Assembly: GCA_041661005.1 (NCBI GenBank) | Contig: JBAZVG010000001.1 | Coordinates: 196,917-260,916, forward strand | Reading direction: 5' to 3' | Source: Minisyncoccota bacterium | GTDB lineage: Bacteria > Patescibacteriota > Minisyncoccia > Phycocordibacterales > UBA9973 | DNA length: 64,000 bases | Program-made: the position numbers and the translations under genes | Notes under the pieces: model-generated | Databases searched by the model: none | What the model saw: only the letters and a program-made list of their open reading frames with translations | Told to the model about the DNA's origin: nothing | In this document: positions 26,811 to 64,000 of the stretch, one piece after another | Numbering within the stretch: the stretch's first letter is position 1 | How the letters are laid out: each line of letters opens with the position of its first letter

Positions 26811-26837
26811 ATCCCTCAATGAGTTTACTTTATTTTT

Positions 26838-33366: not shown

Positions 33367-33471
33367 TCATTGTAATCGAAATAACTAACCACATAGGTGG
33401 AAGAAGCGGCCCATCATGACCGAAAAATAAACCACGTAAAAACGAAATTATCTGCTGGATTGTTTGCTTTT

Positions 33472-35761: not shown

Positions 35762-35862
35762 AGAGGAAAAGGGACGCTCATCCTTGCCGGCGTCGGCAAA
35801 TAAGAAAAAGGGCGACCCGATTGGATCGCCCTTGTGATTAGTAGTCTTCCGGCACCCAAGCG

Positions 35863-36240: not shown

Positions 36241-36855
36241 TTGGACCTTATTGGACAAAGCTCGAACTCTTTTCGATGAACATCGAAGTGATACGCAGAA
36301 AACGATGCCGATGAACCGACCGGATGATTTCACCGTCGCGCTCGGTGATTTGGATGGGGGCAACCGCAGATGCGCGTTTGAAACGGGGAAGACGATGGGA
36401 TTCCATCCATCCACGGTAACGAAGATCAAGCTCCTAATGTAGGAGGCGGGGTTTGCGCACTGCGCCAAGTCACATAATCTCGGTGATGTTTCAGTATAAT
36501 CATTGGAAGCAAATTGTCACTATTACATTAACACTCTGCAATCCTAGCTTGACGGACAATAGGCACTTACTTACGGATAAACGATAAAAGCCCCTTCGGG
36601 GTGTTGGATGATGAATAATGGATGTTCAAACGCGCCAATATCGTAGCACAAAAAAAACTCCGAATACATACAATGACGTATTCGGAGTCACGCTTTGATA
36701 CAACCAACAGATGCGTGATTCTTGTTGGGCGACCCTTTGGTCCGCTCAAGGCTCGGGTAGATCCAAGAGAAGCCGAGTTAAGACGAGGTTATCCCAGGGA
36801 ACTCGGACTGCTGGGACACACATTATAGCACAGGTAAGTGGCAATGTGTCATCAT

Positions 36856-37581
36856 CTAAACATTGTCGTCTTGATTTAGTCCACCCCTTACCTCCGCTAG
36901 CCTCCGCGACAGAGACAGCAATTCGTCTTCCATTCCAAAATATGACCAGTCCTGAATGTAGCGGGTGTAGAACGAGTAAATGCCAGCACTGAATCCGTTC
37001 AATAGCCTATCCGATATCCACTCATTTCCAAACTCAATACGGAAATCATCGAGAATGTCATCATTCTTGAGTCTTAAGAGTTCCGCAGCTTCGCCTTCAA
37101 CTGCGTCTTGGCACAACGCTAAAACCTCTCGACAGCGTTGCCTGATGTCTAACTGGTGCGTCGGAATACGGGTCCAGTTATGGCGTTCGGAGAGGTGGAG
37201 GTCATCTCTAAAGCATCCAAGGAGTGTATCGTTAGTCGCCAATTCTTCCCAGATCTTCCGGGCTCTTGGAGTGACCGTAATTGCGTCGCCTGGACTCAAT
37301 AAAGATGGTGCATACCCTCTGTCAGATTCAATCAAGCGTTCGGCATATAATTCATCGAGCATGTCGCTCATCTGCTCTGGCTTTTTCGCGAAATAGCTAG
37401 CACCAATTGCATTCATGGCATCCAACGTCCATGGCGACCGTGTGCGCTCTTCAACGAATGGTTCCACCAGTCGGCGATGAGAATGCGGCTGCCACAACGG
37501 CAGCAGATGGGGAATCAACCAGCGCTTGCCACCCGGCCATTTGAGCGGTGGCCGGTTCTCCGTTGTGCTCGTAATCGGCAA
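36856..37581 (-). CDS. Hypothetical protein with an N-terminal remnant of a D12-class (Dam-like) adenine MTase motif
   Basis: PLKWPGGKRWLIPHLLPL....RLVEPFVE matches the Dam N-terminal motif (KWAGGK..L...I......Y.EPF.GGG), but the rest is unrelated. Confidence 0.35.
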   Translation of the reverse strand: MPITSTTENRPPLKWPGGKRWLIPHLLPLWQPHSHRRLVEPFVEERTRSPWTLDAMNAIGASYFAKKPEQMSDMLDELYAERLIESDRGYAPSLLSPGDAITVTPRARKIWEELATNDTLLGCFRDDLHLSERHNWTRIPTHQLDIRQRCREVLALCQDAVEGEAAELLRLKNDDILDDFRIEFGNEWISDRLLNGFSAGIYSFYTRYIQDWSYFGMEDELLSLSRRLAEVRGGLNQDDNV

Positions 37582-37743
37582 GGCTGGAGAGAAGTCACGC
37601 GAGTTGTGACTGACGACAGAAACACGCCTTTGAAATGGGCGTAGATGAGTGCGGCTGCCCGTTCTGCTTTGTGACCATAGGCTCGAACATCGTCCAGTCC
37701 TCTCAGCATTTTAAATGAGAGTGATTACTTGCAATTATCCTTG

Positions 37744-40084: not shown

Positions 40085-40386
40085 GATATATTTTTAATAC
40101 ATCAGGTGAATACGTGGCCTTTATTTCAGGAGATAATTTATTTAATCTGAACTGCGATTGGATTGGTTTTATTTTAAACGGCAATGAAGTTTATTCATCA
40201 AACGATTTATCTTTTATTGGCTATATTAGTGCAGATGATAGAATCTTAGGTAAAAGAAATGATTTACGTAAACTTCGTCCATTACGACCACTTCGTCCAT
40301 TACGACCACTTCGTCCATTACGACCACTTCGCAGACTAAGAATGCTTAGAGTGCCTTATCCATGGTTTGATGTGTTTGAAAAATAA
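40081..40386 (+). CDS. Hypothetical protein with (LRP)n tandem repeat
   Basis: The ORF contains RKLRPLRPLRPLRPLRPLRRLRMLR, encoded by a 9/18-bp DNA tandem repeat (40272-40335). Confidence 0.3.
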   Translation: MRYIFNTSGEYVAFISGDNLFNLNCDWIGFILNGNEVYSSNDLSFIGYISADDRILGKRNDLRKLRPLRPLRPLRPLRPLRPLRRLRMLRVPYPWFDVFEK

Positions 40387-49482: not shown

Positions 49483-50709
49483 ATGCAAAAAAACACCAAA
49501 AAAATTGAAGGAAAATTTATTAAAGCTTTAACTTTTGATTTACAAAAAGATGGCTGGGACAAAAGCCGTGGCTTTGTCATGCGTGATGTATCGATGCCAG
49601 TTTTAAATGAAAAAAGTAATCCCGAAGATTCAATTTCTGTTATCGTAAAAATACGATACGCAGGTGTCTGTGGTTCTGATAGGGGACTTTGGCATAGGAC
49701 ATCTTTTAAAGATTTAGTTCATAGTTCTCTTGAAAAAGAGGGAAAAACTATGAGGATAACCGGACATGAATTTGTGGGAGAAATTGTAGAAGCTGGCAGT
49801 ATGGTGAAAAATCTTTATTATGATAAAGATCCACAAAATAAAGCAAAAATAGAAGTCGGCGGTCTCGTGTCTGGAGATTCTCATGTCACATGCGGGCGTT
49901 GCTATCAATGCAGGATAGGTGAAGGACATGTTTGTCTAAATGAGTCAATTCTTGGGATTTCCATTGATGGTATTTTTGCGGAGTATGTAAAAATTCCAGC
50001 AAAAAATTTATGGGCAGTGGATGAAAGTCGTCTTCGTACTGAAATTGCATCTATCTATGATCCATTTGGTAATGCCGTCCATGCGACAACAAAGGTAGAT
50101 TTTCGCGGACAACGGGTGGCTATTTTTGGTTGCGGACCTATTGGATTATTTTCGATTTTGCTAGCGCGCAATTTTGGCGCGGCAAAAATTATTGCTGTAG
50201 ATATACTTCCCGAAAATTTAAAAATGGCAAAAGAGCTGGGCGCGCATGAAACTATTCTTATTCCAGAAACTAAAAAAGAAAATAATTGGGAAAGTGATAA
50301 GTCTGTGGTTGATCAAATCATGAAATTAACCTATGGCAAAGGTGTGGATGTGTCCATGGAAATGTCTGGAGCTTTTTCATCAGTAAATAATGCTATCGAT
50401 AGCACTCGTCGCGGGGGTGACGTCATATTTTTTGGAATCAAAGATGGTGATCTGGTAATACCAAAATTTTCCCGTGTTATTGTGCGAGGTTTGACCATGC
50501 ATAACATTATCGGCCGTGAAATCTTTCGCACATGGCAAATAGCGCAACGTATTTTGAATGATAAAAGTAATGGAATTCAAGATGCCATTTGGAATATAAT
50601 TCTAAAAAGTGGGAAGGGAACTATTTTATCGTTTAAAGATTTTACACCTGAAAGTTTTGAAAAAGCAATGAACGAAAATCCAAAAATTATTTTCAAAATT
50701 AACGGCTAA
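49483..50709 (+). CDS. tdh: L-threonine 3-dehydrogenase (zinc-dependent MDR family)
   Basis: GHEFVGEIVEAG and CGRCYQCRIGEGHVC zinc motifs, GCGPIGL Rossmann fold; followed by kbl. Confidence 0.75.
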   Translation: MQKNTKKIEGKFIKALTFDLQKDGWDKSRGFVMRDVSMPVLNEKSNPEDSISVIVKIRYAGVCGSDRGLWHRTSFKDLVHSSLEKEGKTMRITGHEFVGEIVEAGSMVKNLYYDKDPQNKAKIEVGGLVSGDSHVTCGRCYQCRIGEGHVCLNESILGISIDGIFAEYVKIPAKNLWAVDESRLRTEIASIYDPFGNAVHATTKVDFRGQRVAIFGCGPIGLFSILLARNFGAAKIIAVDILPENLKMAKELGAHETILIPETKKENNWESDKSVVDQIMKLTYGKGVDVSMEMSGAFSSVNNAIDSTRRGGDVIFFGIKDGDLVIPKFSRVIVRGLTMHNIIGREIFRTWQIAQRILNDKSNGIQDAIWNIILKSGKGTILSFKDFTPESFEKAMNENPKIIFKING

Positions 50710-50787
50710 AAAATACCTGTCCCGTACTAAATTTTTGAGTAAAACAAATGGTCAATATTAATAACAATTTAAAATTTTAGTACTGGG

Positions 50788-51120
50788 ATGGATATAAAAT
50801 CAAATAAAGAAAATAAAAGTTGTGCGATAAAGTTTACAGCCGAAGAAAATTGTAAAATTTTGGGCCGAGCATACCTTTATATTGTGTTCAACGATTTACA
50901 CAAAGAACCTTTTGGATTTATGGAGGACGTCTTTGTGGAGGAAAAAAATCGTGGCAAAGGCATTGGAACAAAACTTGTAAATGAAGTAATAGCCGAAGCA
51001 AAGAAACAAAATTGTTATAAAATTATCTGTACAAGTCGTTATGAAAAACCCGAAGTTCATTCATTATATAAAAAGCTTGGTTTTAAAGATCATGGTAAAG
51101 AATTTAGAATAGATTTATAA
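50788..51120 (+). CDS. GNAT-family N-acetyltransferase
   Basis: FVEEKNRGKGIGTKLV...YKKLGF match motif A/B. Confidence 0.6.
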   Translation: MDIKSNKENKSCAIKFTAEENCKILGRAYLYIVFNDLHKEPFGFMEDVFVEEKNRGKGIGTKLVNEVIAEAKKQNCYKIICTSRYEKPEVHSLYKKLGFKDHGKEFRIDL

Positions 51121-51132
51121 TAGTAAAACTAT

Positions 51133-52356
51133 ATGTATTCAAAAAAATTGATTCAAGATATTGAGAATGAGTTAAAAGCGCTTCAACAGGCCGGTAAATT
51201 TAAAGTTGAAAGGGAATTAGAGGGTGCGCAGGGTCCGGAAGTGGAAATAAATAGTAAGAAAGTTCTAATGTTTGCCTCCAATAATTACTTGGGTTTAGCA
51301 AATCATCCTGAAATAGTTAAAGCGAGCAAAGAAGCGATAGATAAATATGGTTTTGGACTTTCTTCTGTGCGTTTTATTTCTGGTACTGAAACGATACACA
51401 AAATTTTAGAAAAGAAATTGTCAGAATTTTTAGGCACAGAAGACGTCATTCTATATTCTACAAATTTTATGGCAAATTTAGGATTTTTTGCGACTATTAC
51501 CAATGAAGCTTTAGGTAGCACAGAATATATAGACGCTATTTACAGTGATGAACTAAACCATGCTAGCATTATTGATAGCTTCAAGCTTTGTAAAAAAGAA
51601 AATGTTGTGAAAAGAATTTATCCACATGGTGATTTGGTTGCATTAGAAAAAATACTTGAAGAAGATGAAACTAAAAACTACCGATTTAAAATCATTGTTA
51701 CGGATGGAGTTTTTTCGATGGAAGGATATTTAGCGCAACTACCAAAAATTGTGGAGCTTTCAAAGAAATACGAGACATTAGTCTTTGTGGATGATGCGCA
51801 TGCTATAGGGGTGCTCGGTAAAACAGGCGCAGGTACGCCAGAGCATTTCGGTCTTCACGGAAAAATTGATGTCCTCTCTGGAACTTTTGGTAAAGCGCTC
51901 GGTGGAGCAGTCGGTGGATATATCGCGGGTAAAAAAGAAATTATAGAATTACTTCGTCAAAAATCCCGCACTTATCTTTTTTCAAATTCTGTACCTCCAT
52001 CTGTAGTTATCGCTTCTATTAGGGCATTAGATTTATTAAAAGAAAAACCAGAACTTCTAAAAAAAGTTAGAGAAAATTCAGAATATTTTAGAAATGGAGT
52101 CAAGAAAATGGGTTTTAATGTTTTAGAGGGTGATCATCCGATAGTGCCAGTCATGCTCGGTGATGCTGCTAAAACTCAAGAAATGAGTAAAAAACTATTA
52201 GAAAAAGGCCTTTTTGTTGTAGGTCTTTGGTTTCCAGTTGTGCCAGAAGGTACAGCTAGACTGCGTTTTCAGCTTTCCGCCGCGCATACCCGTGAACAGA
52301 TAGATCAAGCGCTAAAAATAATGGGAGAGGTTGGTAAAGAAATGAAAATAGTATAA
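51133..52356 (+). CDS. kbl: 2-amino-3-ketobutyrate CoA ligase (glycine C-acetyltransferase)
   Basis: PLP-dependent AOS family: FASNNYLGLANHP ... DDAHA.G ... SGTFGKALGG. Confidence 0.85.
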   Translation: MYSKKLIQDIENELKALQQAGKFKVERELEGAQGPEVEINSKKVLMFASNNYLGLANHPEIVKASKEAIDKYGFGLSSVRFISGTETIHKILEKKLSEFLGTEDVILYSTNFMANLGFFATITNEALGSTEYIDAIYSDELNHASIIDSFKLCKKENVVKRIYPHGDLVALEKILEEDETKNYRFKIIVTDGVFSMEGYLAQLPKIVELSKKYETLVFVDDAHAIGVLGKTGAGTPEHFGLHGKIDVLSGTFGKALGGAVGGYIAGKKEIIELLRQKSRTYLFSNSVPPSVVIASIRALDLLKEKPELLKKVRENSEYFRNGVKKMGFNVLEGDHPIVPVMLGDAAKTQEMSKKLLEKGLFVVGLWFPVVPEGTARLRFQLSAAHTREQIDQALKIMGEVGKEMKIV

Positions 52357-52365
52357 TATGTCAGT

Positions 52366-55335
52366 ATGATTTCACGGATATATGTGATACCTAAAAACGA
52401 AGCAACCAAGGCAGATTCTTATTTGATTGACTCTAAATTATCTAAAAAAGAACTTGTAAAACTAGCTCAGACACTTACTAATCCTATTTTGGAGGATTAT
52501 TTTATAGACGAATCTCCAAGAGTTGGAAACTTTTCCCATGCAATCGAAATAGGATTTTTACCGGGGGTCACAGATAATGTCGGCCATACAGTCAAAGAAA
52601 TTGCGACAGATATGCTTCATCTAAAAAAGAATTTCAGTTTGGCGGTTTATACCTCCAAGATTTTTTTTATTAATTCACACGGCCTTGAAGACGCCCAGAA
52701 ACACTCTCTTACTTTATACAATCCGCTTATTGAAAGAGCCCTTTTTGTAGAGATAAAATCCGGAAAAATAGATTTGCCAAATAAAATACCTGAAGTTGTT
52801 TTAAGAAAAGGTGTGTCAATTTTACCTGTTTCACTTTCAGTGTCAGATGAAGAACTTATAAAAATAGGGAAAGAAGGAATACTGGACGAGACAAATTTAC
52901 GCAGGGGACCTTTAGCGCTTGATCTATCTTCAATGCAAGCTATTCAAAAATATTTTTCTTCGCTAAAAAGAAACCCGACTGATATAGAGCTCGAATCTCT
53001 AGCTCAAACTTGGTCAGAACATTGCAAGCACACTATTTTTGCAAATGAAATAGATGATATTAAAGATGGCTTGTATAAAACTTACATAAAAGGGGCGACA
53101 AATTTAATAAGAAAACAAAAGACAGAGAGAGGTCAGCAGGATTTTTGTGTTTCTGTTTTTAGTGATAATGCTGGCGGAATAATTTTTGATGAAGATTATT
53201 TAATAACACACAAAGTCGAAACCCATAACAGCCCTTCGGCTCTCGATCCATTTGGTGGAGCAATCACAGGCATAGTAGGGGTGAATCGCGACACAATCGG
53301 CTTTGGATTGGGCGCCAAACCGATAGCCAATACTTATGGATTTTGTTTTGGTAATCCGGAAGATACAAGACCGCTTTTTCGAGATAAAGAGCAGAAACAA
53401 AGAATGCTTTTACCGAAACGCATCATGGAAGGGGTGGTAAAGGGAATAAACGTCGGAGGAAACTGCTCCGGGATTCCGACTCTTTCTGGATTTATCAAAT
53501 TTGACGATAGATATAGGGGGAAACCTTTGGTTTTTGCCGGAACTGTTGGATTAATTCCAAGAAACTTATCTATCCATGGAGGGAAAAAACAACTATCGCA
53601 TGAAAAACAGGCACGAGTAGGGGATTATATAGTTATGGTTGGTGGAAGGGTAGGACTCGATGGAATACATGGAGCCACTTTTTCTTCCGTAACTATGGAT
53701 TCGACTTCTCCTGCGACAGCAGTGCAGATAGGAGATCCGATAACTCAAAAGAAACTTAGCGATAGCATCGTCAAAGAAGCGCGCGATATGAATTTATATA
53801 CTAGCATCACAGATAACGGTGCTGGTGGGCTGTCATGTTCAGTATCCGAGATGGCAAAAGAATGCGGTGGAGCAAAAGTTTTCATAGAAAAAATACCACT
53901 TAAATATCCAGGTCTTCTTCCTTGGGAAATTTGGATTTCTGAATCGCAAGAACGAATGACTTTGTCTGTTCCAAAAAATAAATGGAAAATGTTCCAAAAG
54001 TTGATGGAAAGTCGGGGGGTAGAAGCGATTGTGATTGGAGAATTCACAAATTCTGGAAAAGTTATCGTGCAATATAAAGGAAAAAAAATTATGGATATAG
54101 ATATGGAGTTTTTGCACAACGGATTGCCGAAACATTATTTAAACACTACTCCAGTGATAATCAAAAATCTTGAGCCTGCATTACCTAAAGGTCTATCACG
54201 CACAAAGGTTCTAGAAAAATTGTTAGGTGAAAAAAATATCAGCGGATTTGCTTTCATTTCCGAGCAGTATGACCACGAGGTGCAAGCATCTTCCGTGTTA
54301 AAACCGTTGTCCGGGAGGGGACGTATTAATACCGACAGTCAAATTTTTCGTCCGGTTTTGAATTCAAACAAAGGAGTTGTGTTGTCATCCTCAAGCTATC
54401 CTTCATACGGAGACATAAGCTCTTATGACATGGCATCTTGCGCGCTCGATACTGCAATTCGAAACATAATTGCATCAGGTGGTACGCTTTCACACCTTGC
54501 GATACTAGATAATTTCTGCTGGTGCTCATCAAATGATCCGAAACGGCTATACCAGCTTGTAGAGGCTGTAAAGGCTTGTCATGACACAGCTATCGGCTAC
54601 GGGACGCCGTTTATCTCTGGTAAAGACAGTATGTTCAATGATTTTAAAGGATATGATGAAAAAGGTAATCCTGTTTCTATCTCCATCCCGCCAACCCTTT
54701 TGATTTCTGCGATTAGTGTAATGCCTGATTTATATAAAACAGTTTCACCAGAATTTAAAAATAGTGGGGATATAATTTATTTACTGGGAGAAACGCATGA
54801 TGAATTAGGCGCAAGCGAATATTATAAACTTTTGGTAAAACAAGAGGGGAATAATGCAACCCACCTAGACCCGCTTCGATGCGAGGCGAGCTCGGCGAGG
54901 CTGGTAGGCAATAGTGTGCCAAAAGTTAATTTAGAAAAAAATCTAAAAACTTATTTAGCGTTAGAGAAGGCTATTCAAAAAGAACTGTTAGCTTCTTCGC
55001 TTTCTGTAACTTCCGGAGGCTTTGGAATCGCCTTAACTAAAGCATCTATTGGTGGAATGCTCGGATGTGAAATAAACATCAAAAACATGCTGGGGGGCTC
55101 AAATTTGGCCGATGTGAAGCTTTTTTCTGAAAGCCAGGGTAGGATATTGGTTTCTGTATCTCCTAAAAACACAAAGCAGTTTGAAAGAATAATGCAGGAA
55201 ATTCCTTGTGCTAAACTTGGAAAAGTAACAAAAAATGATAAGTTTGTAATTTTAGATGGTAAAGATAAAATTGTCGAAACAAATATTAAAAAATTGCACG
55301 CCATTTATCATAAATTTTCGAATTCACAACAATGA
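52366..55335 (+). CDS. purL: Phosphoribosylformylglycinamidine synthase subunit PurL with a large-type N-terminal (PurS-like) domain; glutaminase encoded separately
   Basis: RNPTDIELESLAQTWSEHCKHTIF (compare NP.DIEL.M.AQ.NSEHCRHKIF), VETHNSPSALDPFGGA, AIR-synthase-like domains; 989 aa. Carries an in-frame 45-nt element at 54860-54904. Confidence 0.85.
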   Translation: MISRIYVIPKNEATKADSYLIDSKLSKKELVKLAQTLTNPILEDYFIDESPRVGNFSHAIEIGFLPGVTDNVGHTVKEIATDMLHLKKNFSLAVYTSKIFFINSHGLEDAQKHSLTLYNPLIERALFVEIKSGKIDLPNKIPEVVLRKGVSILPVSLSVSDEELIKIGKEGILDETNLRRGPLALDLSSMQAIQKYFSSLKRNPTDIELESLAQTWSEHCKHTIFANEIDDIKDGLYKTYIKGATNLIRKQKTERGQQDFCVSVFSDNAGGIIFDEDYLITHKVETHNSPSALDPFGGAITGIVGVNRDTIGFGLGAKPIANTYGFCFGNPEDTRPLFRDKEQKQRMLLPKRIMEGVVKGINVGGNCSGIPTLSGFIKFDDRYRGKPLVFAGTVGLIPRNLSIHGGKKQLSHEKQARVGDYIVMVGGRVGLDGIHGATFSSVTMDSTSPATAVQIGDPITQKKLSDSIVKEARDMNLYTSITDNGAGGLSCSVSEMAKECGGAKVFIEKIPLKYPGLLPWEIWISESQERMTLSVPKNKWKMFQKLMESRGVEAIVIGEFTNSGKVIVQYKGKKIMDIDMEFLHNGLPKHYLNTTPVIIKNLEPALPKGLSRTKVLEKLLGEKNISGFAFISEQYDHEVQASSVLKPLSGRGRINTDSQIFRPVLNSNKGVVLSSSSYPSYGDISSYDMASCALDTAIRNIIASGGTLSHLAILDNFCWCSSNDPKRLYQLVEAVKACHDTAIGYGTPFISGKDSMFNDFKGYDEKGNPVSISIPPTLLISAISVMPDLYKTVSPEFKNSGDIIYLLGETHDELGASEYYKLLVKQEGNNATHLDPLRCEASSARLVGNSVPKVNLEKNLKTYLALEKAIQKELLASSLSVTSGGFGIALTKASIGGMLGCEINIKNMLGGSNLADVKLFSESQGRILVSVSPKNTKQFERIMQEIPCAKLGKVTKNDKFVILDGKDKIVETNIKKLHAIYHKFSNSQQ
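54860..54904 (+). repeat. 45-nt palindromic element copy inside purL (translated THLDPLRCEASSARL)
   Basis: CCCACCTAGACCCGCTTCGATGCGAGGCGAGCTCGGCGAGGCTGG. Confidence 0.75.
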
Positions 55336-57041
55336 AAGCTGAAACAAAAATCTGTCAAAACTGTAAAAAGGATTTCGTCATCGAATCGGATGATTTTGGA
55401 TTTTATAAAAAGATGGGTGTACCGGTGCCGACTTTTTGCCCTGACTGTAGGTTTCAAAGAAGACTTTTATTTAGAAATAATCGAGTGTTTTATAAACGCG
55501 AGTGTGCTTTTTGTAAGAAAGTAGTTCTAAGTTTATATAATAAGGATCGTCCTTTTATAGTTTATTGTCATGATTGCTGGTTTTCAGATAAATGGGATGT
55601 AATGAGTTATGGACGTGATTATGATTTTTCAATTCCATTTTTTAGACAATTTCAATTACTCCAAAAAGCAGTACCCAGAGCAAACTTATACCAAACAAAT
55701 TTCGTTTCAAGTGAATATTGTAATTACGGACTAGATTTTAAAGAATGTTATCTTTTATTTGGAGGTCATAATAACGAGCGAGTTTATTTTGGCAATCAGG
55801 TTTTTGATTCCCGTGATTCCTTTGATATTGCATTCTCAGCAACAAATGAACTTAGCTATGAAATTTTCGAGGGTAAAAGTTTAAACAAAGTTGTTTATAG
55901 TTCTTATTCAAAAGATTGTATAGACAGCCATTATCTAATTTTTTGCAAAAATTGCATTAATTGTTTTGGTTGTATCGGGCTGGTAAATAAGCAATATTAT
56001 ATTTGGAATATCCCACATTCGAAAGCAAGTTATGAAAAGTTCATTAAAGAAAATCAAGGAAGCTATACAAGGCACCTTGAAAATTTAAGAAAACTTCAGG
56101 AATTGAAATTAGAATTACCACACAGATATGCGAGAGTATACCAATCTGTAAATTCTGACGGTGATGATATTAGAAGATGTAGAAATACCCACATGGCTTT
56201 CACGTCCAGTGATGCGGAAAACTCCAAACATCTTTTTTTTTGCGTAAGAGGCGCAAACGAGTGCTATGATAATTCTTTTCAGGGTACAGGTAGTGAACTC
56301 TTATATGAAATAGCCCACGGTTTCGGTGGTTCCAGAAGTATTGTCGGTGTCGGAAATTTTAGTAATCAAGATTCACAATATAATGAGGAATGCCACGATT
56401 GTTTAAATATTTTTGGATGCGAAGGATTGCGAAAGAAACAATATTGTATTTTGAATAAACAATATAGTAAGGAAGAGTATGAAAAAATATTACCTAAAAT
56501 AATTGTGCATATGAAAAGCACGAGAGAATATGGTGAATTTTTCCCTAGTAATTTATCTCCGTTTTCATACAACGAAACTATTGCGCAAGAATATTTTCCT
56601 TTAAACAAAGAAGACGCCCTAAAACAAGGTTTTCTATGGCAGGACAGTGAAGCCAGGAATTATAAAATTGATATAGAAAATCAGGATATACCGGATAACA
56701 TCCAAGATGTTACGGAAAATATAGTGAGTAAAGTGATTGCTTGCGGACACGAAGGTAAATGCAAACATCAATGTACTGAGGCATTTAAAATTGTCTCTGA
56801 AGAATTTAAATTCTATAAAAAAATGAATTTGCCCTTGCCTAGACTATGTCCGAATTGTAGACATTATCAGCGTATCAATTTAAGAAATCCATTGAAACTT
56901 TGGGAGAGAGTTTGCATGTGCGAAAAAGAAAATCATTTTCACGGGCAAGAAAAATGTGTAGTAGAATTCAAAACGAGCTATGCATCAGACAGACCAGAAA
57001 TAGTGTATTGTGAAAAATGTTATCAACAAGAAATTTATTAA
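55332..57041 (+). CDS. Large cysteine-rich protein, paralog of 6857-8581, embedded in the pur operon
   Basis: 569 aa; N- and C-terminal modules and internal Cys repeats are collinear with the first copy. ATGA overlap with the purL stop codon. Confidence 0.8.
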   Translation: MKAETKICQNCKKDFVIESDDFGFYKKMGVPVPTFCPDCRFQRRLLFRNNRVFYKRECAFCKKVVLSLYNKDRPFIVYCHDCWFSDKWDVMSYGRDYDFSIPFFRQFQLLQKAVPRANLYQTNFVSSEYCNYGLDFKECYLLFGGHNNERVYFGNQVFDSRDSFDIAFSATNELSYEIFEGKSLNKVVYSSYSKDCIDSHYLIFCKNCINCFGCIGLVNKQYYIWNIPHSKASYEKFIKENQGSYTRHLENLRKLQELKLELPHRYARVYQSVNSDGDDIRRCRNTHMAFTSSDAENSKHLFFCVRGANECYDNSFQGTGSELLYEIAHGFGGSRSIVGVGNFSNQDSQYNEECHDCLNIFGCEGLRKKQYCILNKQYSKEEYEKILPKIIVHMKSTREYGEFFPSNLSPFSYNETIAQEYFPLNKEDALKQGFLWQDSEARNYKIDIENQDIPDNIQDVTENIVSKVIACGHEGKCKHQCTEAFKIVSEEFKFYKKMNLPLPRLCPNCRHYQRINLRNPLKLWERVCMCEKENHFHGQEKCVVEFKTSYASDRPEIVYCEKCYQQEIY

Positions 57042-57045
57042 AATA

Positions 57046-57900
57046 ATGAAAAATAAAAAACTACATTCGCATAGCTCAGTATTTTCGGCAAAAAAGCCTC
57101 GGATTATAATAATGTCCGGTTACGGACTTAATTGTGAAGAAGAAACAAAATTCGCTTTTGAGACGACAGGTGGAATTGCGAATATTGTGCATATCAATGA
57201 CCTTATCGCTAAACCGAAGATGCTTTCACAATATCAAATACTGGTTTTTCCGGGAGGGTTTTCTTATGGCGATGATACTGGTAGTGGAAAAGCTTATGCA
57301 AATAAATTTAAAAATCATCTAGAAAAAGAACTAGAGGAATTCTTATCTCGCGACACTCTCACTATAGGTATTTGTAACGGATTTCAAATCATAACTAATT
57401 TAGGAATTTTACCCGGTGCGTTAACGCATAATAAAAATGGTAAATATATCGACCGTTGGGTGGACCTGACCACCTCCACAGGAAGCTCCAGTGTGTCAAA
57501 GGAAGTTAGTCCATGGCTTAAAGATATTAAAAGTATATCGCTTCCGATAGCGCACGGCGAAGGGCATTATGTTGTTGACCCAAAGAAATACAAAGAATTA
57601 GAAAAAAATAACCAGATAGCTTTTAAATATACCAAAGGGGAAATTTGTAAATTTCAAAATCTCGAAAAAAATCCTAATGGCTCGGAACATGACATTGCGG
57701 GAGTTTTGGCATATAATGGTAGGGTATTGGGAATGATGCCCCATCCGGAAAGGGCCATGTTTTCACACCAGAGTCCGTTGTGGTCCCTCGACAAAACTCG
57801 GGATAAACAGAAAATAAAAAAGGAAGGAATAGGTTTACAAATTTTTAAAAACGCAGTTAATTATTTCAAGAATCATGAGAAAAATTTCTTAGGAAAATAA
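57046..57900 (+). CDS. purQ: Phosphoribosylformylglycinamidine synthase glutaminase subunit
   Basis: Class I GATase: RIIIMSGYGLNCEEET, FPGGFSYGDD, GICNGFQ and a catalytic His region. The ORF track begins it at 57010 with a non-ATG codon. Confidence 0.8.
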   Translation: MKNKKLHSHSSVFSAKKPRIIIMSGYGLNCEEETKFAFETTGGIANIVHINDLIAKPKMLSQYQILVFPGGFSYGDDTGSGKAYANKFKNHLEKELEEFLSRDTLTIGICNGFQIITNLGILPGALTHNKNGKYIDRWVDLTTSTGSSSVSKEVSPWLKDIKSISLPIAHGEGHYVVDPKKYKELEKNNQIAFKYTKGEICKFQNLEKNPNGSEHDIAGVLAYNGRVLGMMPHPERAMFSHQSPLWSLDKTRDKQKIKKEGIGLQIFKNAVNYFKNHEKNFLGK

Positions 57901-57931
57901 ACTTTTTCTAAGAAATTTTTAGAAAATTACT

Positions 57932-59365
57932 ATGAAAGATTTAAACGAAAAGTGCGCAGTATTTGGAATTTTTGGAGACAAAAATTCTTTAGAAAATAGA
58001 ATTGCAAGAGAGACATATTTCGGATTATTTTCTTTACAACATCGCGGACAGGAACATTCGGGGATTGCGACGACTGACGGTGAAAGACTTCACATGCACA
58101 AAAGCTCAGGCTTGGTAAGTCAAATTTATACTGAAGAAATTTTAAAAAAACTTCCCGGTTTTGCCGCCATTGGACACAATCGCTATTCTACATCCAATGG
58201 AAATCATGTCGAATACGCCCAGCCATTTCTTTACGATAATCTTTTTGCTTTTGGGCATAATGGCAATTTGCCGAGCACGGCAAAATTGGTTGAATTCTTA
58301 AAAAAAAATAATGAAATATCAAAAAATCTTTCTGATTCACAACTCATGACGCAAGCCATCGGTGTATATGTAAAAAAAGGAGAATCACTCGCTGACTCTA
58401 TTGAAAAAACTTACCCACTTTTTACTGGAGCGTTCTCTTGTGTAGTGCTGGGATTAAACGAACTGATAGCTTTTCGCGATTCGTGTGGTATTCGCCCGCT
58501 TATTTTAGGTAAAAGAGGGAACGAAACAATCATATGTTCTGAGACATGCGCGTTAAACACTCTCGGAGCAGAATTCATAAGGGAAATAGATCCCGGAGAA
58601 ATGGTTATTGTCACAAAAAATGGCATTAAAAGCAGAAAAATAGCCAAAGCCAAGCCAAAATTTGATATTTTTGAATTTGTTTATTTTGCTCGTTATGACA
58701 GCATGATGCTCGGCAAATCTGTTTACGAAGTTAGAAAAAACTTAGGACGCATGCTCGCGCGTCAAAACAAAACACAGAATAAAATTAACAGCGGAGTAAA
58801 CGATGTCGACATGATAATTCCCGTGCCGGAATCAGCCATATCGGCCTCGATCGGCTACGCAGAAGAATCAGGCATACCATTTGAAATGGCTATTTCTAAG
58901 AACCGTTATATTAATCGCACTTTTATCGAACCCACCCAAGAGATTCGAGCGGAAAAAGTGAAATTAAAACTCTCTCCACTCAAAAGCGTAATCTTTGGAA
59001 AAAAAATTGCGGTAATGGATGATTCGATAGTGCGAGGCACAACTAGCAAGCAAATTGTAAAAATGCTTTTTGAAGCAGGCGCAAAAGAAGTGCATTTCTT
59101 GGTGAGTTCTGCGCCGATACGTTTCCCTGATTTTTACGGTATTGATACCCCGAATCAAAAAGAACTTATTGCTTCAAAGAAGACAATAAAAGAAATCTGT
59201 AAATTCCTTGGAGCGACATCACTTTCATATTTATCAATTGACGGAATGGTGTCTGCAACGGGGTTACCCAAAGAATGTTTTTCGCTTGCTTCTTTTGATG
59301 GAGTTTATCCGGTTGATATTCATGAACGCGCCAAAGAGATAAATTACGATGTCCCAAAAGACTAA
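57932..59365 (+). CDS. purF: Amidophosphoribosyltransferase
   Basis: N-terminal MKDLNEKCAVFGIFG (Ntn Cys) and a PRTase domain with DDSIVRGTT. Confidence 0.9.
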   Translation: MKDLNEKCAVFGIFGDKNSLENRIARETYFGLFSLQHRGQEHSGIATTDGERLHMHKSSGLVSQIYTEEILKKLPGFAAIGHNRYSTSNGNHVEYAQPFLYDNLFAFGHNGNLPSTAKLVEFLKKNNEISKNLSDSQLMTQAIGVYVKKGESLADSIEKTYPLFTGAFSCVVLGLNELIAFRDSCGIRPLILGKRGNETIICSETCALNTLGAEFIREIDPGEMVIVTKNGIKSRKIAKAKPKFDIFEFVYFARYDSMMLGKSVYEVRKNLGRMLARQNKTQNKINSGVNDVDMIIPVPESAISASIGYAEESGIPFEMAISKNRYINRTFIEPTQEIRAEKVKLKLSPLKSVIFGKKIAVMDDSIVRGTTSKQIVKMLFEAGAKEVHFLVSSAPIRFPDFYGIDTPNQKELIASKKTIKEICKFLGATSLSYLSIDGMVSATGLPKECFSLASFDGVYPVDIHERAKEINYDVPKD

Positions 59366-59957
59366 AATAAAATTGGCAATTCTTATTTCCGACGCTGGCA
59401 CTGGCACTAATCTCCAAGCTATAATTGACGGAATCGAGAATGGAAAAATTAATGCAGAAATATGCGCAGTGATTTCCGACAAAATTGAAACGCAGGGATT
59501 GGAACGCGCTAGAAAACACAATTTAAAAATTGAAATTTGCTCAAAAAAAGAAGCCCTACTTCCGCTCTTAAAAAAATTAAATCCAAATTATATTTGCCTT
59601 GCTGGTTGGAAGCAGATTATTTTAGATGAAGTAATCCTCGCATATCCGAATAAAATTTTAAATTTACACCCGGGGCTTATTCCGAACACTATTGGTGGAG
59701 ATGTGAAAAATCCCGATGGCACAGACGCGCTTTGGAACAAGGGAATGCTCACAACCAAAGCTATTCAAAATTTTTTAGATCAAAAGTCTACCTTTGCAGG
59801 ATCATCAATCCATTTTTTGACGTTAAATTTTGATTTTGGTCCGGTTCTGGATAGAACTTTTGAAAAAATTCAAGCTGGAGATACTGTGGAATCTTTGTAT
59901 AGAAGGCTAAAGAAAAAAGAAAATAACTTATACGTAGAAGTTTTATCCCGCTTATAG
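59349..59957 (+). CDS. purN: Phosphoribosylglycinamide formyltransferase
   Basis: KLAILISDAGTGTNLQAI ... LAGWKQII ... NLHPGL(IP). Confidence 0.85.
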   Translation: MSQKTKIKLAILISDAGTGTNLQAIIDGIENGKINAEICAVISDKIETQGLERARKHNLKIEICSKKEALLPLLKKLNPNYICLAGWKQIILDEVILAYPNKILNLHPGLIPNTIGGDVKNPDGTDALWNKGMLTTKAIQNFLDQKSTFAGSSIHFLTLNFDFGPVLDRTFEKIQAGDTVESLYRRLKKKENNLYVEVLSRL

Positions 59958-59975
59958 CGGGACCCCGCCAAGGCG

Positions 59976-61280
59976 GTGGGAAAAATTAACCAAATGAAAC
60001 AAGATAAACGAAAAATTTTAATAATTGGCGGCGGAGGAAGAGAACATGCAATAGGATGGAAAATTACCCAGTCTGAAAGGTCAGTGGACCTGTATTTTGC
60101 TCCTGGAAACGCGGGAACAGCTCAAATTGGAACAAATTTGCTTATCATGGCAACGAATGTATCAGGGCTCTTAAATTTCGCAAAGGAAGAGAAAATAGAT
60201 CTAATATTGGCTTTGCCTGACGATCCTCTTGCTCTCGGTATAGTTGATGAATTTCAAAAAGCGGGTATGCGAATTTGGGGTCCAACAAAGAGAGCGAGTG
60301 AGCTTGAGTGGTCTAAAGCATATGCTAAAGATTTAATGAAAAGACATAAAATCCCAACTGCGAAACACGAAGTTTTTACTAACTTTGAAAAAGCAAAAAC
60401 ATATATTGAAAAAGGGTCATTACCTATTGTGATCAAAGCAAGTGGGCTGGCGCTCGGGAAAGGCGTGACAGTCGCGCAAACGAAAGAGGAAGCCGTCGAA
60501 GCGCTTCATAAAATATTGGTAGATAAAATTTTTGGAAATGCCGGTAATGAAGTTGTGATTGAAGAATATCTATCCGGTATTGAAATTTCAATTCACGCAA
60601 TTTCTGATGGAAAATCATGGAAAATTTTTCCATCATCGCAAGATCACAAACGCATATTTGACGGAAATGTGGGTCCGAACACTGGCGGAATGGGAGTTAT
60701 TGCGCCACTGCCTTTTGTAGATGATAAACTTATGTTGCAAATTGAAAAAGAAATAATTAAACCCACCATAGATGGAATGAGAGAAGAGGGAAGACCGTTT
60801 GTTGGCATTTTGTATCCAGGAATAATGCTTACCAACGAAGGTCCGAAGGTATTTGAATTTAACGCGCGTTTTGGCGATCCAGAAACACAAGTCTATATGC
60901 GATTGCTTGATACGGATATTCTCGATATTATTGACGCCAGTATTGATGGTAAAATTTCTAACTTAGACATCCAGTGGAAAAAAAATAAATATGCCTGCAA
61001 TATTGCGCTGGCTTCAGCCGGTTATCCGGGAAATTATGAGAAGGGGAACCCCATCCTCCTTGAGGAGGGGGGAGGGGGTGGTGACATCATAATCTTTCAC
61101 GCCGGTACAAAAATAGAAAACAATAAACTTGTCACCAACGGCGGGCGAGTTCTGGGAGTCAGTGCCGTAGGTGATACTTTAAAAGAAGCGCTTAAGAAAG
61201 CATATAAAGCAATAGATAAAATTTCTTTTGCGGGGATGCAATATAGAAAAGATATCGGCAAAATTGCTCTTAAATTGTAA
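59976..61280 (+). CDS. purD: Phosphoribosylamine--glycine ligase
   Basis: ILIIGGGGREHAIGWKI N-terminus, ATP-grasp fold, C-terminal domain. Confidence 0.9.
   Translation: MGKINQMKQDKRKILIIGGGGREHAIGWKITQSERSVDLYFAPGNAGTAQIGTNLLIMATNVSGLLNFAKEEKIDLILALPDDPLALGIVDEFQKAGMRIWGPTKRASELEWSKAYAKDLMKRHKIPTAKHEVFTNFEKAKTYIEKGSLPIVIKASGLALGKGVTVAQTKEEAVEALHKILVDKIFGNAGNEVVIEEYLSGIEISIHAISDGKSWKIFPSSQDHKRIFDGNVGPNTGGMGVIAPLPFVDDKLMLQIEKEIIKPTIDGMREEGRPFVGILYPGIMLTNEGPKVFEFNARFGDPETQVYMRLLDTDILDIIDASIDGKISNLDIQWKKNKYACNIALASAGYPGNYEKGNPILLEEGGGGGDIIIFHAGTKIENNKLVTNGGRVLGVSAVGDTLKEALKKAYKAIDKISFAGMQYRKDIGKIALKL
61045..61085 (+). repeat. G-rich hairpin segment in purD (CCTCC-TTGA-GGAGG GGGGAGGGGGTGGTGA) related to the rsmI insertion
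   Basis: Shares the CTCCTTGA..GGAG.GGGG..GGGGGAG.GGTGA pattern with 3731-3786 and is translated LLEEGGGGGD. It may be partly native linker. Confidence 0.4.
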
Positions 61281-61572
61281 AAATAAAAAGAGCCGTCCCT
61301 CTGGGTGGGACGGCTCGGGTTGAAATTGATGTCTGTTTGTTGTGCTTGTACTGGAAGCACTGCCATTTTAGGCGGAGGTGGTACCCAGTCTTGTTCAAAA
61401 ACACCGTGATATTTTGAATTAAATTGGGAACCTCTTCCGTTTGTTTGGACCAATAAAACTTGAACAACAGTCGAAATTATGCGACAGAAAAGTCCGCATA
61501 CCGACTGGTAAAAGAAGAACAGCATACTTAGTGAGGACTATAACACAGAAAAGATAAATAAATCAAGTAAAT

Positions 61573-62937
61573 CTATCTATCCCAATTAAAAAAGTGCTCG
61601 CGGTCAGGACCGGTGCCGACGGAGATGATTTTCACATCGAGATCGGCTAGTTCAGCTTTTATATATTTTAAATACGAGGCTAATTCTTTTGAAACTTTCT
61701 TTTTGTCTCTTACCCCATAATTAGCTTTTCCCCAGCCGGGTATTTCTTCTGTCACTACGCTTTTTATTTCACTTAAGTAAAGCGGGAATTCCTTGAAATT
61801 TTTCCCAGCATTGTTTTTGTATCCAGTCACAACTTTCACTTTATCGCTCAGGCAGATATCGGCCTTATTTATAAAAATTTTATTGGCGCCCGATAAGGTA
61901 ATCGCATAACGAAGCGCAAACAGATCGAGCCAGCCACACATACGAGGTCTTCCAGTCGTAGCTCCGAATTCATGTCCAGCATTTTGAAAAAGTTTTTCTA
62001 GAGCTTCGTCTTTGATTCTAGAAGGAAAATTTCCACCACCCACTTTAGTAGTATAAGCTTTAATAACTCCATATATATTTCTGATTGCAGTATGAGGCAC
62101 ACCCAAACCGAGACACGCATTCGCCGGCAGGGTATTACTGCTTGTGACATTTGGATAATCTCCAAAATCAATATCAAGCATGACAGCTTGCGCTCCCTCG
62201 GCTAAAATATTTTTACCCTCGCGCAATCGTGTTTGAATCAAAAATGCTAAATCGCAAATTTGTAATTTTTTCATTTCTTTCACAGCTTTCAGCCATTTTT
62301 CTTTTGTTTCTTTTATTTTTTCTACAGGAATTTCAAAACCATACTTCTCTTTATACATATTCAAGATATTCATGTGGAATTCCGCAAGAGCTGTTTCTTT
62401 TTGTTCAAAATCAGAAAGAAGTATGTCGCCGATTAGAAGCCCTCTTCGAGCTCGCACATCGCTATAAGCAGGACCGATACCTCTTGAAGTCGTGCCTATT
62501 TTTGTTCCTAGTTTATTTCTGCGATATTCGTCAGCCTGATCTAAAAACGGATGTAAATATGAAACTAATTTTGCGCGATTAGAAATATAAAGACAAGAGG
62601 CAACATCAAACCCTAAACTTTTCAATTGGGACATTTCTGCCGTCAATGACACAGCATCGACTACGACACCATTGCCAATATATAATTCTATATTTTTTTG
62701 CAAACATCCAGAAGGCACGATATGTCCGATGAAAGTCACATCGCCCAATTTGAGAGTGTGTCCGGCATTTGCTCCGCCTTGGAAACGCGCTACCCCCGAA
62801 TAATCACCCCTCGATAGAAGCTCATCTATATTTTTTCCTTTTCCCTCGTCTCCCCATTGCAGGCCGACAACTACATCAACAAATCCATGTCGAGACGATG
62901 AGCGAGCTTTTTTATTTTTTACAATTTTACTTTTCAT
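61573..62937 (-). CDS. purA: Adenylosuccinate synthetase
   Basis: QWGDEGKGK P-loop, GIGP and TTGR motifs; ~20-aa N-terminal extension in the ORF track. Confidence 0.9.
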   Translation of the reverse strand: MKSKIVKNKKARSSSRHGFVDVVVGLQWGDEGKGKNIDELLSRGDYSGVARFQGGANAGHTLKLGDVTFIGHIVPSGCLQKNIELYIGNGVVVDAVSLTAEMSQLKSLGFDVASCLYISNRAKLVSYLHPFLDQADEYRRNKLGTKIGTTSRGIGPAYSDVRARRGLLIGDILLSDFEQKETALAEFHMNILNMYKEKYGFEIPVEKIKETKEKWLKAVKEMKKLQICDLAFLIQTRLREGKNILAEGAQAVMLDIDFGDYPNVTSSNTLPANACLGLGVPHTAIRNIYGVIKAYTTKVGGGNFPSRIKDEALEKLFQNAGHEFGATTGRPRMCGWLDLFALRYAITLSGANKIFINKADICLSDKVKVVTGYKNNAGKNFKEFPLYLSEIKSVVTEEIPGWGKANYGVRDKKKVSKELASYLKYIKAELADLDVKIISVGTGPDREHFFNWDR

Positions 62938-62940: not shown

Positions 62941-64000
62941 CTAGTTTCCAATACTATAATTAGGAGCTTCTTTTGTAATTATGACATCGTGCGGATGACT
63001 TTCTGTCATACCAGACTGCGTAATTCTAACAAATTTTGCTTTTTTCTGCAGAGCCTCAATATTTTTTGCTCCACAATACCCCATGCCAGCTCTAAGTCCT
63101 CCAACGAGCTGATAAACAACTTCGGAAAGACCGCCTTTGAAAGACACCCTACCCACAATGCCCTCAGGCACAAGTTTTTTAATATCATCTTCCGCGTCTT
63201 GGAAATATCTATCCTTTGAGCCTTGATGCATAGCTTCGATTGAACCCATACCACGGTATGTTTTATATTTTCTGGCTTCTAAGATTATTGTCTCACCCGG
63301 AGATTCTTCTACTCCGGCAAAAATAGAACCGGCCATAACCGAACTTGCCCCAGCGGCGATAGCTTTTGGAATGTCTCCAGTATGCCGTATTCCTCCGTCA
63401 GCGATAATCGGCACACCAGATCCTTTTATCGCTCTAGCAACTTCATACACAGCAGAAAATTGCGGAAAACCAACGCCAGCGATCACCCGAGTGGTGCAAA
63501 TTGACCCCGGACCGATGCCAACTTTTACCGCATCAGCTCCAGCCAGCACCAAGTCTTTTGCCGCATCTCCGGTAGCGATATTTCCGACTATAACTTCTAA
63601 TTTTGGAAATATTTTTTTTATTTTCTTTAACATCTCGATCACCCCCTTGGAATGACCATGAGCCGTATCTATAACTATCGCATCAACTCCATTTTGTTCG
63701 AGCTCTTTGACTCTCTCTAAAGTATCAGCTGTCACTCCGACTGCAGCGCCCACTCGCAGACGTCCGAGACTATCTCTGCAGGAATTCGGGCGGGATTTCA
63801 CTTTCATTATATCTTTATAAGTAATGAGACCGATAAGCTTGTTTTGTTTATCAACCAAAGGCAATTTTTCAACTTTATATTTTGTAAGTATTTTTTCTGC
63901 ATCGGCTAGATTTGTGCCTAGACTGCCGGTTATTAAATTTTTCTTGGTCATAATTTCTCCGACAGGAAGCTCTAAATTTTTCTGAAACCTCAAATCTCGA
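62941..64000 (-). CDS. guaB: IMP dehydrogenase, 3'-portion (gene continues beyond the window end)
   Basis: GIGPGSICTTR, GGIR..GD, one CBS-domain segment near the window edge. The reading frame is open to position 64000 (TTG at 63993 is not the true start). Confidence 0.8.
   Translation of the reverse strand, partial: RDLRFQKNLELPVGEIMTKKNLITGSLGTNLADAEKILTKYKVEKLPLVDKQNKLIGLITYKDIMKVKSRPNSCRDSLGRLRVGAAVGVTADTLERVKELEQNGVDAIVIDTAHGHSKGVIEMLKKIKKIFPKLEVIVGNIATGDAAKDLVLAGADAVKVGIGPGSICTTRVIAGVGFPQFSAVYEVARAIKGSGVPIIADGGIRHTGDIPKAIAAGASSVMAGSIFAGVEESPGETIILEARKYKTYRGMGSIEAMHQGSKDRYFQDAEDDIKKLVPEGIVGRVSFKGGLSEVVYQLVGGLRAGMGYCGAKNIEALQKKAKFVRITQSGMTESHPHDVIITKEAPNYSIGN

What the first reader, a model, noticed from the sequence alone, without database searches (positions are those of the whole stretch)
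52366..61280. De novo purine cluster purL-(Cys-rich)-purQ-purF-purN-purD with hybrid PurL architecture; purA and guaB convergent
PurL carries the N-terminal domain typical of single-chain large PurL (the NP.DIEL..AQ.NSEHC.H.IF linker motif) but lacks the fused glutaminase, which is encoded separately as PurQ. No purS was seen. This intermediate architecture, plus the embedded Cys-rich gene and an in-frame selfish repeat, makes the locus a good case study of pathway remodelling.
Basis: partly seen in the sequence, partly recalled or inferred. Interest (0 to 1): 0.5.

Follow-up and report, generated by a model that had tools for sequence, protein, structure and literature searches.

The report
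Purine operon with PurS-fused PurL
This is an ordinary purine-synthesis gene cluster from a tiny groundwater-type (CPR) bacterium; its PurL enzyme has the small helper protein PurS built in at the front, a form already catalogued as "PurSL", and the cluster also carries two lineage-specific hitchhikers.

Summary
52366-61280 encodes purL, a 569-aa Cys-rich ORF, purQ, purF, purN and purD. purA and guaB converge on it from the other strand. The window comes from a Candidatus Paceibacterota/Nomurabacteria genome.

This architecture is not new. It is the "mdPurL" described in methanogens in 2011, and IMG already names relatives "subunit PurSL".

The Cys-rich gene is translationally coupled to purL. 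It belongs to a large Paceibacteria paralogue family that forms tandem arrays elsewhere and varies in copy and position inside pur clusters. It is most likely a passenger, not a pathway enzyme.

The in-frame repeat is real: 15 codons absent from orthologues. It belongs to a dispersed GC-rich mini-element found mostly inside ORFs.

Interest is low to moderate.

The parts
52366..55335 (+). purL, PurSL (mdPurL) type, 989 aa: tandem PurS-like N-domain, linker, small-PurL-type FGAM synthetase core, no glutaminase domain
   Evidence: A 100% identical protein is annotated in a Candidatus Paceibacterota MAG on an 813-kb contig.
52366..52881 (+). N-terminal domain (residues 1-172), made of two PurS-like halves. 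The first half lacks about 22-28 residues, the stretch that corresponds to the second half's first helix (71-83).
52903..53031 (+). FGAR-AT linker (residues 180-222) with the NPTDIELESLAQTWSEHCKHTIF motif
   Evidence: PF18072, 58.7 bits. Large-PurL models score 43 and 39 bits here, small-PurL models 17 and 16 bits.
54859..54903 (+). In-frame 45-nt GC-rich element (THLDPLRCEASSARL, residues 832-846) in a variable loop of PurL
   Evidence: Absent from 11 orthologues. Other copies in the window. At least 120 metagenome contigs carry the core.
55332..57041 (+). Cys-rich ORF, 569 aa: zinc-ribbon-like CxxC modules at both ends and a repeat-rich middle. Member of an expanded Paceibacteria paralogue family. 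Its start overlaps the purL stop (ATGA).
57046..57900 (+). purQ (glutaminase subunit). ATG lies 4 nt after the Cys-rich stop; the ORF opens at GTG 57010. GICNGFQ and MPHPERA motifs are conserved.
57932..59365 (+). purF (amidophosphoribosyltransferase)
   Evidence: TIGR01134, 415 bits against a cut-off of 350.
59349..59957 (+). purN (GAR formyltransferase)
   Evidence: PF00551, 103 bits. TIGR00639, 112 bits, below its cut-off of 150.
59976..61280 (+). purD (GAR synthetase). ORF opens at GTG; an ATG lies 6 codons in.
   Evidence: TIGR00877, 514 bits.
61290..61316 (.). GC-rich hairpin with a T-run between the convergent purD and purA; terminator-like
61573..62937 (-). purA (adenylosuccinate synthase), convergent with purD
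   Evidence: NF002223, 407 bits.
62941..64000 (-). guaB (IMP dehydrogenase); its 5' part lies beyond the window end
   Evidence: TIGR01302 aligns from profile position 135. The full gene sits in the same position in L001.

Best explanation
The locus is a working de novo purine operon of a Paceibacterota (CPR) bacterium.

**FGAM synthetase.** Step 4 of the pathway is carried out by a two-protein enzyme.
- PurSL is a small-PurL-type ATP-dependent synthetase. Its N-terminus carries two fused PurS-like repeats. These take the place of the PurS dimer of the PurL-Q-S complex, and of the N-domain of single-chain PurL.
- PurQ is a separate glutaminase. It hydrolyses glutamine and passes ammonia to the PurL active site.

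The fold and homology of the N-domain and the intact PurQ motifs are shown here. Complex formation, channelling and activity are inferred from the characterised B. subtilis, T. maritima and Salmonella enzymes.

**Cys-rich ORF.** The ORF between purL and purQ is a co-transcribed member of a large lineage-specific paralogue family. It has lodged in the operon and is not a pathway component.

**In-frame element.** The 45-nt GC-rich insertion in purL is one copy of a dispersed mini-element. It is tolerated because it keeps the reading frame and sits in a variable loop.
For: **PurL core and N-terminal region**
- The core matches small PurL: 494 bits for the whole protein, 476 bits for residues 266-989.
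- The N-terminal 265 residues match the N-terminus of clade-II large PurL (E 1e-15).
- The N-domain model has pLDDT 93.
- The family profile has PurS chains as its six best PDB matches, best E 3.6e-4.
- A PurS/half-1 HMM hits both halves of PurL in relatives: 1.7e-12 and 5.9e-5 in L018. It finds no free-standing purS ORF in the window or the 80 loci, 1.2 Mb in all; the only other hit is a purL start cut off at a locus end.
- A homologue's N-domain hits the PurS model NF005019.

**PurQ**
- PurQ passes the TIGR01737 cut-off.
- It aligns with T. maritima PurQ through GICNGFQ and MPHPERA.

**Precedent and conservation**
- mdPurL was described in methanogens, five of six of which lack purS (PMC3261824).
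- IMG names relatives PurSL.
- The gene order is conserved in L001-L005, L009, L018 and L022.
- Relatives also carry purE, purM and purC.

**Cys-rich family**
- At least 582 relatives occur in GTDB species genomes, some in tandem arrays without pur genes.
- A different paralogue (38% identity) sits between purL and purQ in L001.
- Two copies sit there in L009, and an extra copy lies between purN and purD in L004.
- purSL directly abuts purQ in a non-CPR contig.

**In-frame element:**
Against: - No biochemical data exist for any PurSL.
- The first PurS-like half in this protein has lost about 22-28 residues, the stretch corresponding to the first helix of the second half. It may therefore not fully replace a PurS subunit.
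- Only 64 kb of an 813-kb contig was available, so a purS gene elsewhere cannot be excluded. One methanogen has both forms.
- purM, purE, purC, purB and purH are not in the window.
- The Cys-rich orthologue group is as conserved as PurL (65-73% identity). It keeps the purL-purQ position in at least seven genomes and is translationally coupled. A functional link is therefore not excluded.
Confidence: 0.85

Rival explanations
1. The ancestor was a single-chain PurS-L-Q enzyme. It was split into purL and purQ when a Cys-rich gene inserted between the synthetase and glutaminase domains.
For: - A triple fusion of the same family exists: P0282, 1274 aa.
- The Cys-rich gene sits exactly at the domain boundary, with an ATGA overlap to purL and a 4-nt gap to purQ.
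- The copy number at this site varies among relatives.
Against: - PurQ scores better against stand-alone PurQ models (187.5 bits, above cut-off) than against the C-termini of large PurL (142-157 bits).
- Separate purSL and purQ occur without any Cys-rich gene in a non-CPR bacterium and in methanogens.
- Only one long (>1200 aa) triple-fusion protein appeared among the 150 listed representatives.
Confidence: 0.07
2. The Cys-rich protein is a real partner of FGAM synthetase or of the purine pathway in these bacteria. It could be a scaffold or regulator, or it could compensate for the truncated first PurS repeat.
For: - It holds a conserved position between purL and purQ in L002, L003, L004, L005, L009, L018 and L022.
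- It is translationally coupled to purL.
- It is under strong purifying selection: 65-73% identity, many invariant Cys.
- Most Nomurabacteria PurL carry the truncated first half.
Against: - The same orthologue group occurs away from pur genes in L006-L008, L010-L017, L019-L021 and L026.
- The family forms arrays of up to about 10 copies.
- L001 has a 38%-identical paralogue at the site, while its own orthologue lies elsewhere on the same contig.
Confidence: 0.06
3. The N-terminal extension does not replace PurS. A separate purS elsewhere in the genome serves the enzyme, and the extension has another role or none.
For: - Only 8% of the contig was visible.
- The first half is degenerate in this protein.
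- The second half scores weakly against the PurS HMM in the window copy (i-E 0.91).
Against: - The fold match covers 139-145 residues of large-PurL N-domains.
- The domain is conserved in 397 clusters of relatives.
- No purS lies in or beside any of the eight related pur clusters examined.
Confidence: 0.05

Closest known systems
mdPurL of methanogens (Brown et al. 2011, Biol Direct 6:63), which is the 'PurSL' subunit name used by IMG
   Same: - A small-PurL-type synthetase with about 200 extra N-terminal residues where large PurL has its PurS-like domain.
- A separate PurQ.
- purS usually absent.
   Different: - This one is bacterial (CPR).
- Here the PurS-like nature of the extension is supported by a fold search and by profile hits. 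The 2011 paper only suspected it, on low sequence identity.
- The first repeat is truncated in this lineage.
Single-chain large PurL (Salmonella 1T3T/4LGY; human PFAS 9N9W; TIGR01735, NF003672, TIGR01857)
   Same: - Linker motif NPxDIELxxxAQxxSEHCxHxIF.
- The same order of N-domain, linker and synthetase.
   Different: - No fused glutaminase domain.
- The synthetase core scores about twice as high against small-PurL models.
- All large-PurL models score far below their cut-offs (244-284 bits against 783-1123).
PurL-PurQ-PurS complex of B. subtilis and T. maritima (3D54)
   Same: - The same three functional modules.
- A small-PurL core and a stand-alone PurQ with the GICNGFQ and HPE motifs.
- The family's PurS-like halves match T. 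maritima PurS at sequence level (E 3.6e-4).
   Different: The two PurS subunits are replaced by one covalently fused tandem domain.
Rickettsia palindromic elements (RPEs)
   Same: Short dispersed repeats inserted in frame inside protein-coding genes without destroying them. They are read in several frames and in both orientations.
   Different: - Much shorter: 23-48 nt, against the roughly 100-150 bp I recall for RPEs (from memory, not checked here).
- GC-rich in an AT-rich genome.
- No sequence relationship was tested.
- Mobility is inferred only from presence and absence among orthologues.

Membership tests
PurSL / mdPurL | FGAM synthetase core of the small-PurL type (duplicated AIRS / AIRS_C) | tested here: met
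   TIGR01736 scores 494 bits over residues 190-984. Residues 266-989 alone score 476 bits, against 199-243 bits for large-PurL models.
PurSL / mdPurL | N-terminal extension of about 200 aa equivalent to PurS or the large-PurL N-domain | tested here: met
   [not shown]
PurSL / mdPurL | No fused glutaminase; separate purQ | tested here: met
   PurL ends at the synthetase core. purQ lies at 57046-57900 and passes the TIGR01737 cut-off.
PurSL / mdPurL | No stand-alone purS in the genome | tested here: inconclusive
   None in the 64-kb window or in 1.1 Mb of related loci. The rest of the 813-kb contig could not be fetched.
PurSL / mdPurL | Forms an active FGAM synthetase with PurQ alone | not testable with these tools
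   Needs biochemistry or complementation.
Large single-chain PurL | C-terminal glutaminase domain fused to the synthetase | tested here: not met
   No GATase_5 in the 989-aa protein. NF003672 aligns only to profile positions 168-986 of 1290.
Large single-chain PurL | Score above the curated cut-off of TIGR01735, NF003672 or TIGR01857 | tested here: not met
   244, 284 and 260 bits against cut-offs of 1123, 783 and 1057.
Small PurL (TIGR01736) | Protein begins at the linker (about 720-740 aa) and scores above the cut-off | tested here: not met
   About 185 extra N-terminal residues. 493.7 bits against a cut-off of 525.75.
RPE-like in-frame mini-elements | Dispersed multi-copy repeat lying inside ORFs, keeping the frame, absent from orthologues | tested here: met
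   Five copies in the window, all inside ORFs. The purL copy is absent from 11 orthologues. 90 of 120 metagenome copies lie in open stretches of at least 100 codons, and four frames are used.
RPE-like in-frame mini-elements | Palindromic, hairpin-forming sequence | tested here: inconclusive
   Fold z-scores are -0.9, -0.6, -2.8 and +0.1 for the four copies.
zf_Tbcl (PF13451), for the Cys-rich protein | Score above the Pfam gathering threshold | tested here: not met
   18.3 bits against 24.

The most novel reading that the evidence does not exclude
The 45-nt insertion in purL may belong to a previously undescribed family of very short (23-48 nt) GC-rich mobile elements of Paceibacteria.

Like Rickettsia palindromic elements, these would spread into protein-coding genes in any of four stop-free frames and persist as extra surface loops.

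Together with the operon-lodging Cys-rich gene family, this would mean that streamlined CPR genomes are shaped by selfish elements compatible with coding sequence.
Probability: 0.4. Interest if true: 0.55.

Novelty: new member of a known kind. Interest (0 to 1): 0.3.

Why it matters
**PurL.** The PurL architecture is not a discovery. It is a clear, well-supported bacterial example of the PurS-PurL fusion.
- It adds fold-level evidence to what was only a suspicion in 2011.
- In the same family there are also PurS-L-Q, PurD-PurS-L and PurF-PurN fusions. That makes the group a convenient natural series for asking how single-chain FGAM synthetase was assembled.
- For annotation, genomes of this lineage should not be scored as lacking purS.

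**By-products.** These may be the more original part.
- One is a very large, strongly conserved, uncharacterised Cys-rich family in Paceibacteria.
- The other is a short GC-rich element that sits in frame inside genes.

Tried and rejected
- **Pfam on the N-terminus.** Residues 1-190 alone gave no hit even at E 10.
- **Literature search for 'PurSL'.** It found nothing relevant. The precedent came from a PurS/PurL/PurQ/fusion search.
- **Walking along the genome.** This failed. The window's PurL and PurA are not in the gene-position index, so purS, purM, purC, purE, purK, purB and purH could not be searched genome-wide. They are absent from the window by reading all ORFs of at least 120-140 aa.
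- **First purS HMM run.** It returned nothing because duplicate record names collapsed the seed set. It was repeated correctly.
- **AFDB search.** The afdb50 library was unavailable.
- **Rfam.** It found only three tRNAs, with no purine or ZTP riboswitch.
- **purD EEGGGGG stretch (61049-61088).** It looked like another insertion, but it replaces a segment of similar length in orthologues and is shared with L002 and L003. It is not claimed as an insertion.
- **tdh-kbl linkage to the pur cluster.** It was absent from the relatives' loci I held, though these covered little sequence upstream of purL.
- **Split large-PurL idea.** Considered and ranked low; see the rival explanations.
Full report
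**What is there**

The window is low-GC DNA, about 30-45%. The PurL protein is 100% identical to one annotated in a Candidatus Paceibacterota MAG on an 813-kb contig. Its nearest relatives (68-77% identity) are where named from Nomurabacteria, Paceibacterota or Patescibacteria.

On the plus strand, tightly packed, lie these genes:
- purL, 52366-55335
- a 569-aa Cys-rich ORF, 55332-57041
- purQ, ATG at 57046, ending at 57900
- purF, 57932-59365
- purN, 59349-59957
- purD, 59976-61280

On the minus strand, purA (61573-62937) and guaB (from 62941, cut by the window end) converge on purD. A GC-rich hairpin with a T-run at 61290-61316 lies between them.

The purL stop overlaps the start of the Cys-rich ORF (ATGA). 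Only 4 nt separate that ORF's stop from the purQ ATG. The finding's coordinates are exact.

**PurL architecture**

Small-PurL models give the best whole-protein score. TIGR01736 scores 494 bits, just under its cut-off of 526, but aligns only from residue 190. Large-PurL models align from residues 163-172 at nearly the same profile positions and stop where their glutaminase domain would begin.

Scoring the two parts separately gives a split result:
- Residues 1-265 match the N-terminus of the clade-II large-PurL model TIGR01857 (residues 24-256 to profile 44-260, E 1e-15).
- They also match the linker of TIGR01735 and NF003672 (43 and 39 bits), against only 17 and 16 bits for small-PurL models.
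- Residues 266-989 match small PurL at 476 bits, against 199-243 bits for large-PurL models.

In that descriptive sense the protein is a hybrid. The linker domain itself is not diagnostic, because small PurL also starts with it. T. maritima PurL residues 12-36 align to residues 199-223 here.

**The N-terminal domain**

Pfam sees nothing in residues 1-190. An exhaustive search with residues 1-180 found 397 cluster representatives.

Most of those relatives have two complete halves. Each begins like PurS, for example MAHRIEVGFKPG.RDP.GE in the first half and EIGFLPGVTDNVG in the second. This protein, and most of its close Nomurabacteria relatives, lack about 22-28 residues of the first half.

Four lines of evidence tie the domain to PurS:
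- A 44-sequence profile of the domain has PurS chains as its six best PDB matches (3D54_B E 3.6e-4, then 1VQ3, 1GTD, 2CUW, 2YX5, 8J3N).
- The AlphaFold model is confident (pLDDT 93, pTM 0.81).
- An HMM built from PurS and first-half sequences hits both halves of PurL in relatives (L018: 1.7e-12 and 5.9e-5). Across the window and 80 related loci, 1.2 Mb in all, it finds no free-standing purS ORF; its only other hits are the start of a purL cut off at the end of L052 and a noise-level ORF at E 1.

The domain is therefore a fused tandem PurS. It is the equivalent of the PurS dimer in the T. maritima complex and of the N-domain of single-chain PurL.

**PurQ**

PurQ is intact. It aligns with T. maritima PurQ through the GICNGFQ nucleophile motif and the MPHPERA motif.

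**Is it new?**

No.
- Brown and co-workers (2011) described "mdPurL" in six methanogens. It has about 200 extra N-terminal residues in the place of the PurS-like domain, and five of the six species lack purS (PMC3261824).
- IMG already names members of this family "subunit PurSL".
- The form is not restricted to CPR. A contig with flagellar basal-body genes carries purSL directly followed by purQ.

The same family also contains other fusions:
- a PurS-L-Q triple fusion (P0282, 1274 aa)
- a PurD-PurS-L fusion (P0327, 1443 aa), next to a PurF-PurN fusion

Whether PurSL is an evolutionary intermediate or a repeated fusion was not tested. That needs a phylogeny.

**The pathway around it**

No purM, purC, purE, purK, purB or purH is in the window. 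The rest of the genome could not be reached.

Relatives keep the order purL, Cys-rich, purQ, purF, purN, purD (L001-L005, L009, L018; L022 holds a truncated version). In L005, L009 and L018, guaB and purA lie upstream and run in the same direction as purL. In L009 and L018 the cluster continues as purE, an unknown ORF of 270-280 aa, purM and, in L018, purC. The lineage therefore has more of the pathway, and the cluster has been rearranged in the window's genome.

Directly upstream of purL are tdh, a GNAT gene and kbl. These would make glycine from threonine. A link to PurD is only an inference, and no tdh or kbl turned up in the related loci, which covered at most about 5 kb upstream of purL.

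**The Cys-rich gene**

It has CxxC pairs at both ends, in homologous modules of the form CxxC...F.I...FY.K...P.P..CP.CR, and many invariant cysteines. It matches no Pfam or NCBIfam family above threshold.

Context is more informative:
- The window has a 43%-identical paralogue at 6857-8581.
- GTDB species genomes hold at least 582 relatives. They often form tandem arrays, with about ten copies per 17 kb on one contig.
- Each paralogue group is itself well conserved, at 65-75% identity.
- The orthologue of this copy sits next to purQ in seven loci but away from any pur gene in many others.
- L001 has a different paralogue (38% identity) between purL and purQ, while its own orthologue lies elsewhere on the same contig.
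- L009 has two copies at the site, and L004 has one more between purN and purD.

The most likely reading is a lineage-specific family member that lodged in the operon and is co-expressed with it, not a purine enzyme. A functional link is not excluded; I give it about 6%.

**The in-frame repeat**

Positions 54859-54903 encode THLDPLRCEASSARL. This stretch is absent from 11 orthologues and lies in a length-variable loop.

The same GC-rich sequence occurs elsewhere in the window:
- in alr (12982-13054), a long and a short copy in tandem
- in miaA (14034-14082), read on the opposite coding strand
- in a dnaX-like gene (29298-29322), a short copy

Of these, 90 lie in open stretches of at least 100 codons. 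All four stop-free frames are used.

Hairpin propensity is unconvincing, with z-scores between -2.8 and +0.1. Orthologues in other species carry other GC-rich peptide insertions at other sites, for example ARNATRNVAGG and LEVLPPLGG.

This behaviour resembles Rickettsia palindromic elements on a smaller scale. I found no paper describing it in CPR, but the library is incomplete.

**Verdict**

The architecture is a catalogued type, so the main claim is a new member of a known kind. The two passengers are the less expected content of the locus. Overall interest is 0.3.

Noticed in passing
window 6857-8581; loci L030, L031, L033 (one contig), L041, L006: The Cys-rich ORF has a 43%-identical paralogue in the window. 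It belongs to a family with at least 582 relatives in GTDB species genomes, often in tandem arrays of 5-10 copies. Each paralogue group is 65-75% conserved. No known domain or fold.
   Followed up: partly
window 12982-13054 (alr), 14034-14082 (miaA), 29298-29322 (dnaX-like): Further copies of the GC-rich element found in purL, all inside ORFs and read in different frames and orientations. The 23-nt core occurs in at least 120 metagenome contigs, and 75% of those copies lie inside long open frames.
   Followed up: partly
L009 15206-16048; L018 14533-15345: In relatives the cluster continues purD, purE, an ORF of 270-280 aa with no NCBIfam hit, purM, purC. The unknown ORF sits where purK might be expected.
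   Followed up: no
L081 143-2140 and 2271-6602; protein P0282: Other fusions in the same PurL family: PurF-PurN (665 aa), PurD-PurS-PurL (1443 aa) and PurS-PurL-PurQ (1274 aa).
   Followed up: partly
window 49483-52356: tdh, a GNAT acetyltransferase and kbl (glycine C-acetyltransferase, above cut-off) lie directly upstream of purL on the same strand. This is a possible threonine-to-glycine supply for PurD. They were absent from the relatives' loci held, which covered little sequence upstream of purL.
   Followed up: partly
window 11276-11372, 14890-14986, 26720-26816: A 97-nt repeat in three copies (74-82% identity). Two copies lie between ORFs; the third overlaps the 5' end of the longest miaA reading frame. 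It may be a separate small dispersed element.
   Followed up: no
window 30696-37600: A large serine recombinase gene (30707-32446, minus strand) overlaps tRNA-Gln and is followed by a block of much higher GC. This looks like an integrated element.
   Followed up: no
window 61049-61088 (purD) and 22816-22864 (topA): GC-rich CCTCC/GGAGG palindromes inside coding sequence. The purD one encodes EEGGGGG. It replaces a segment of similar length in orthologues and is shared with L002 and L003.
   Followed up: partly
window 18094-18229 and 40264-40331: Short tandem coding repeats: units of 39-42 nt in a Gly/Asn/Ser-rich protein with a hydrophobic N-terminal segment, and 18-nt units in a small ORF.
   Followed up: no
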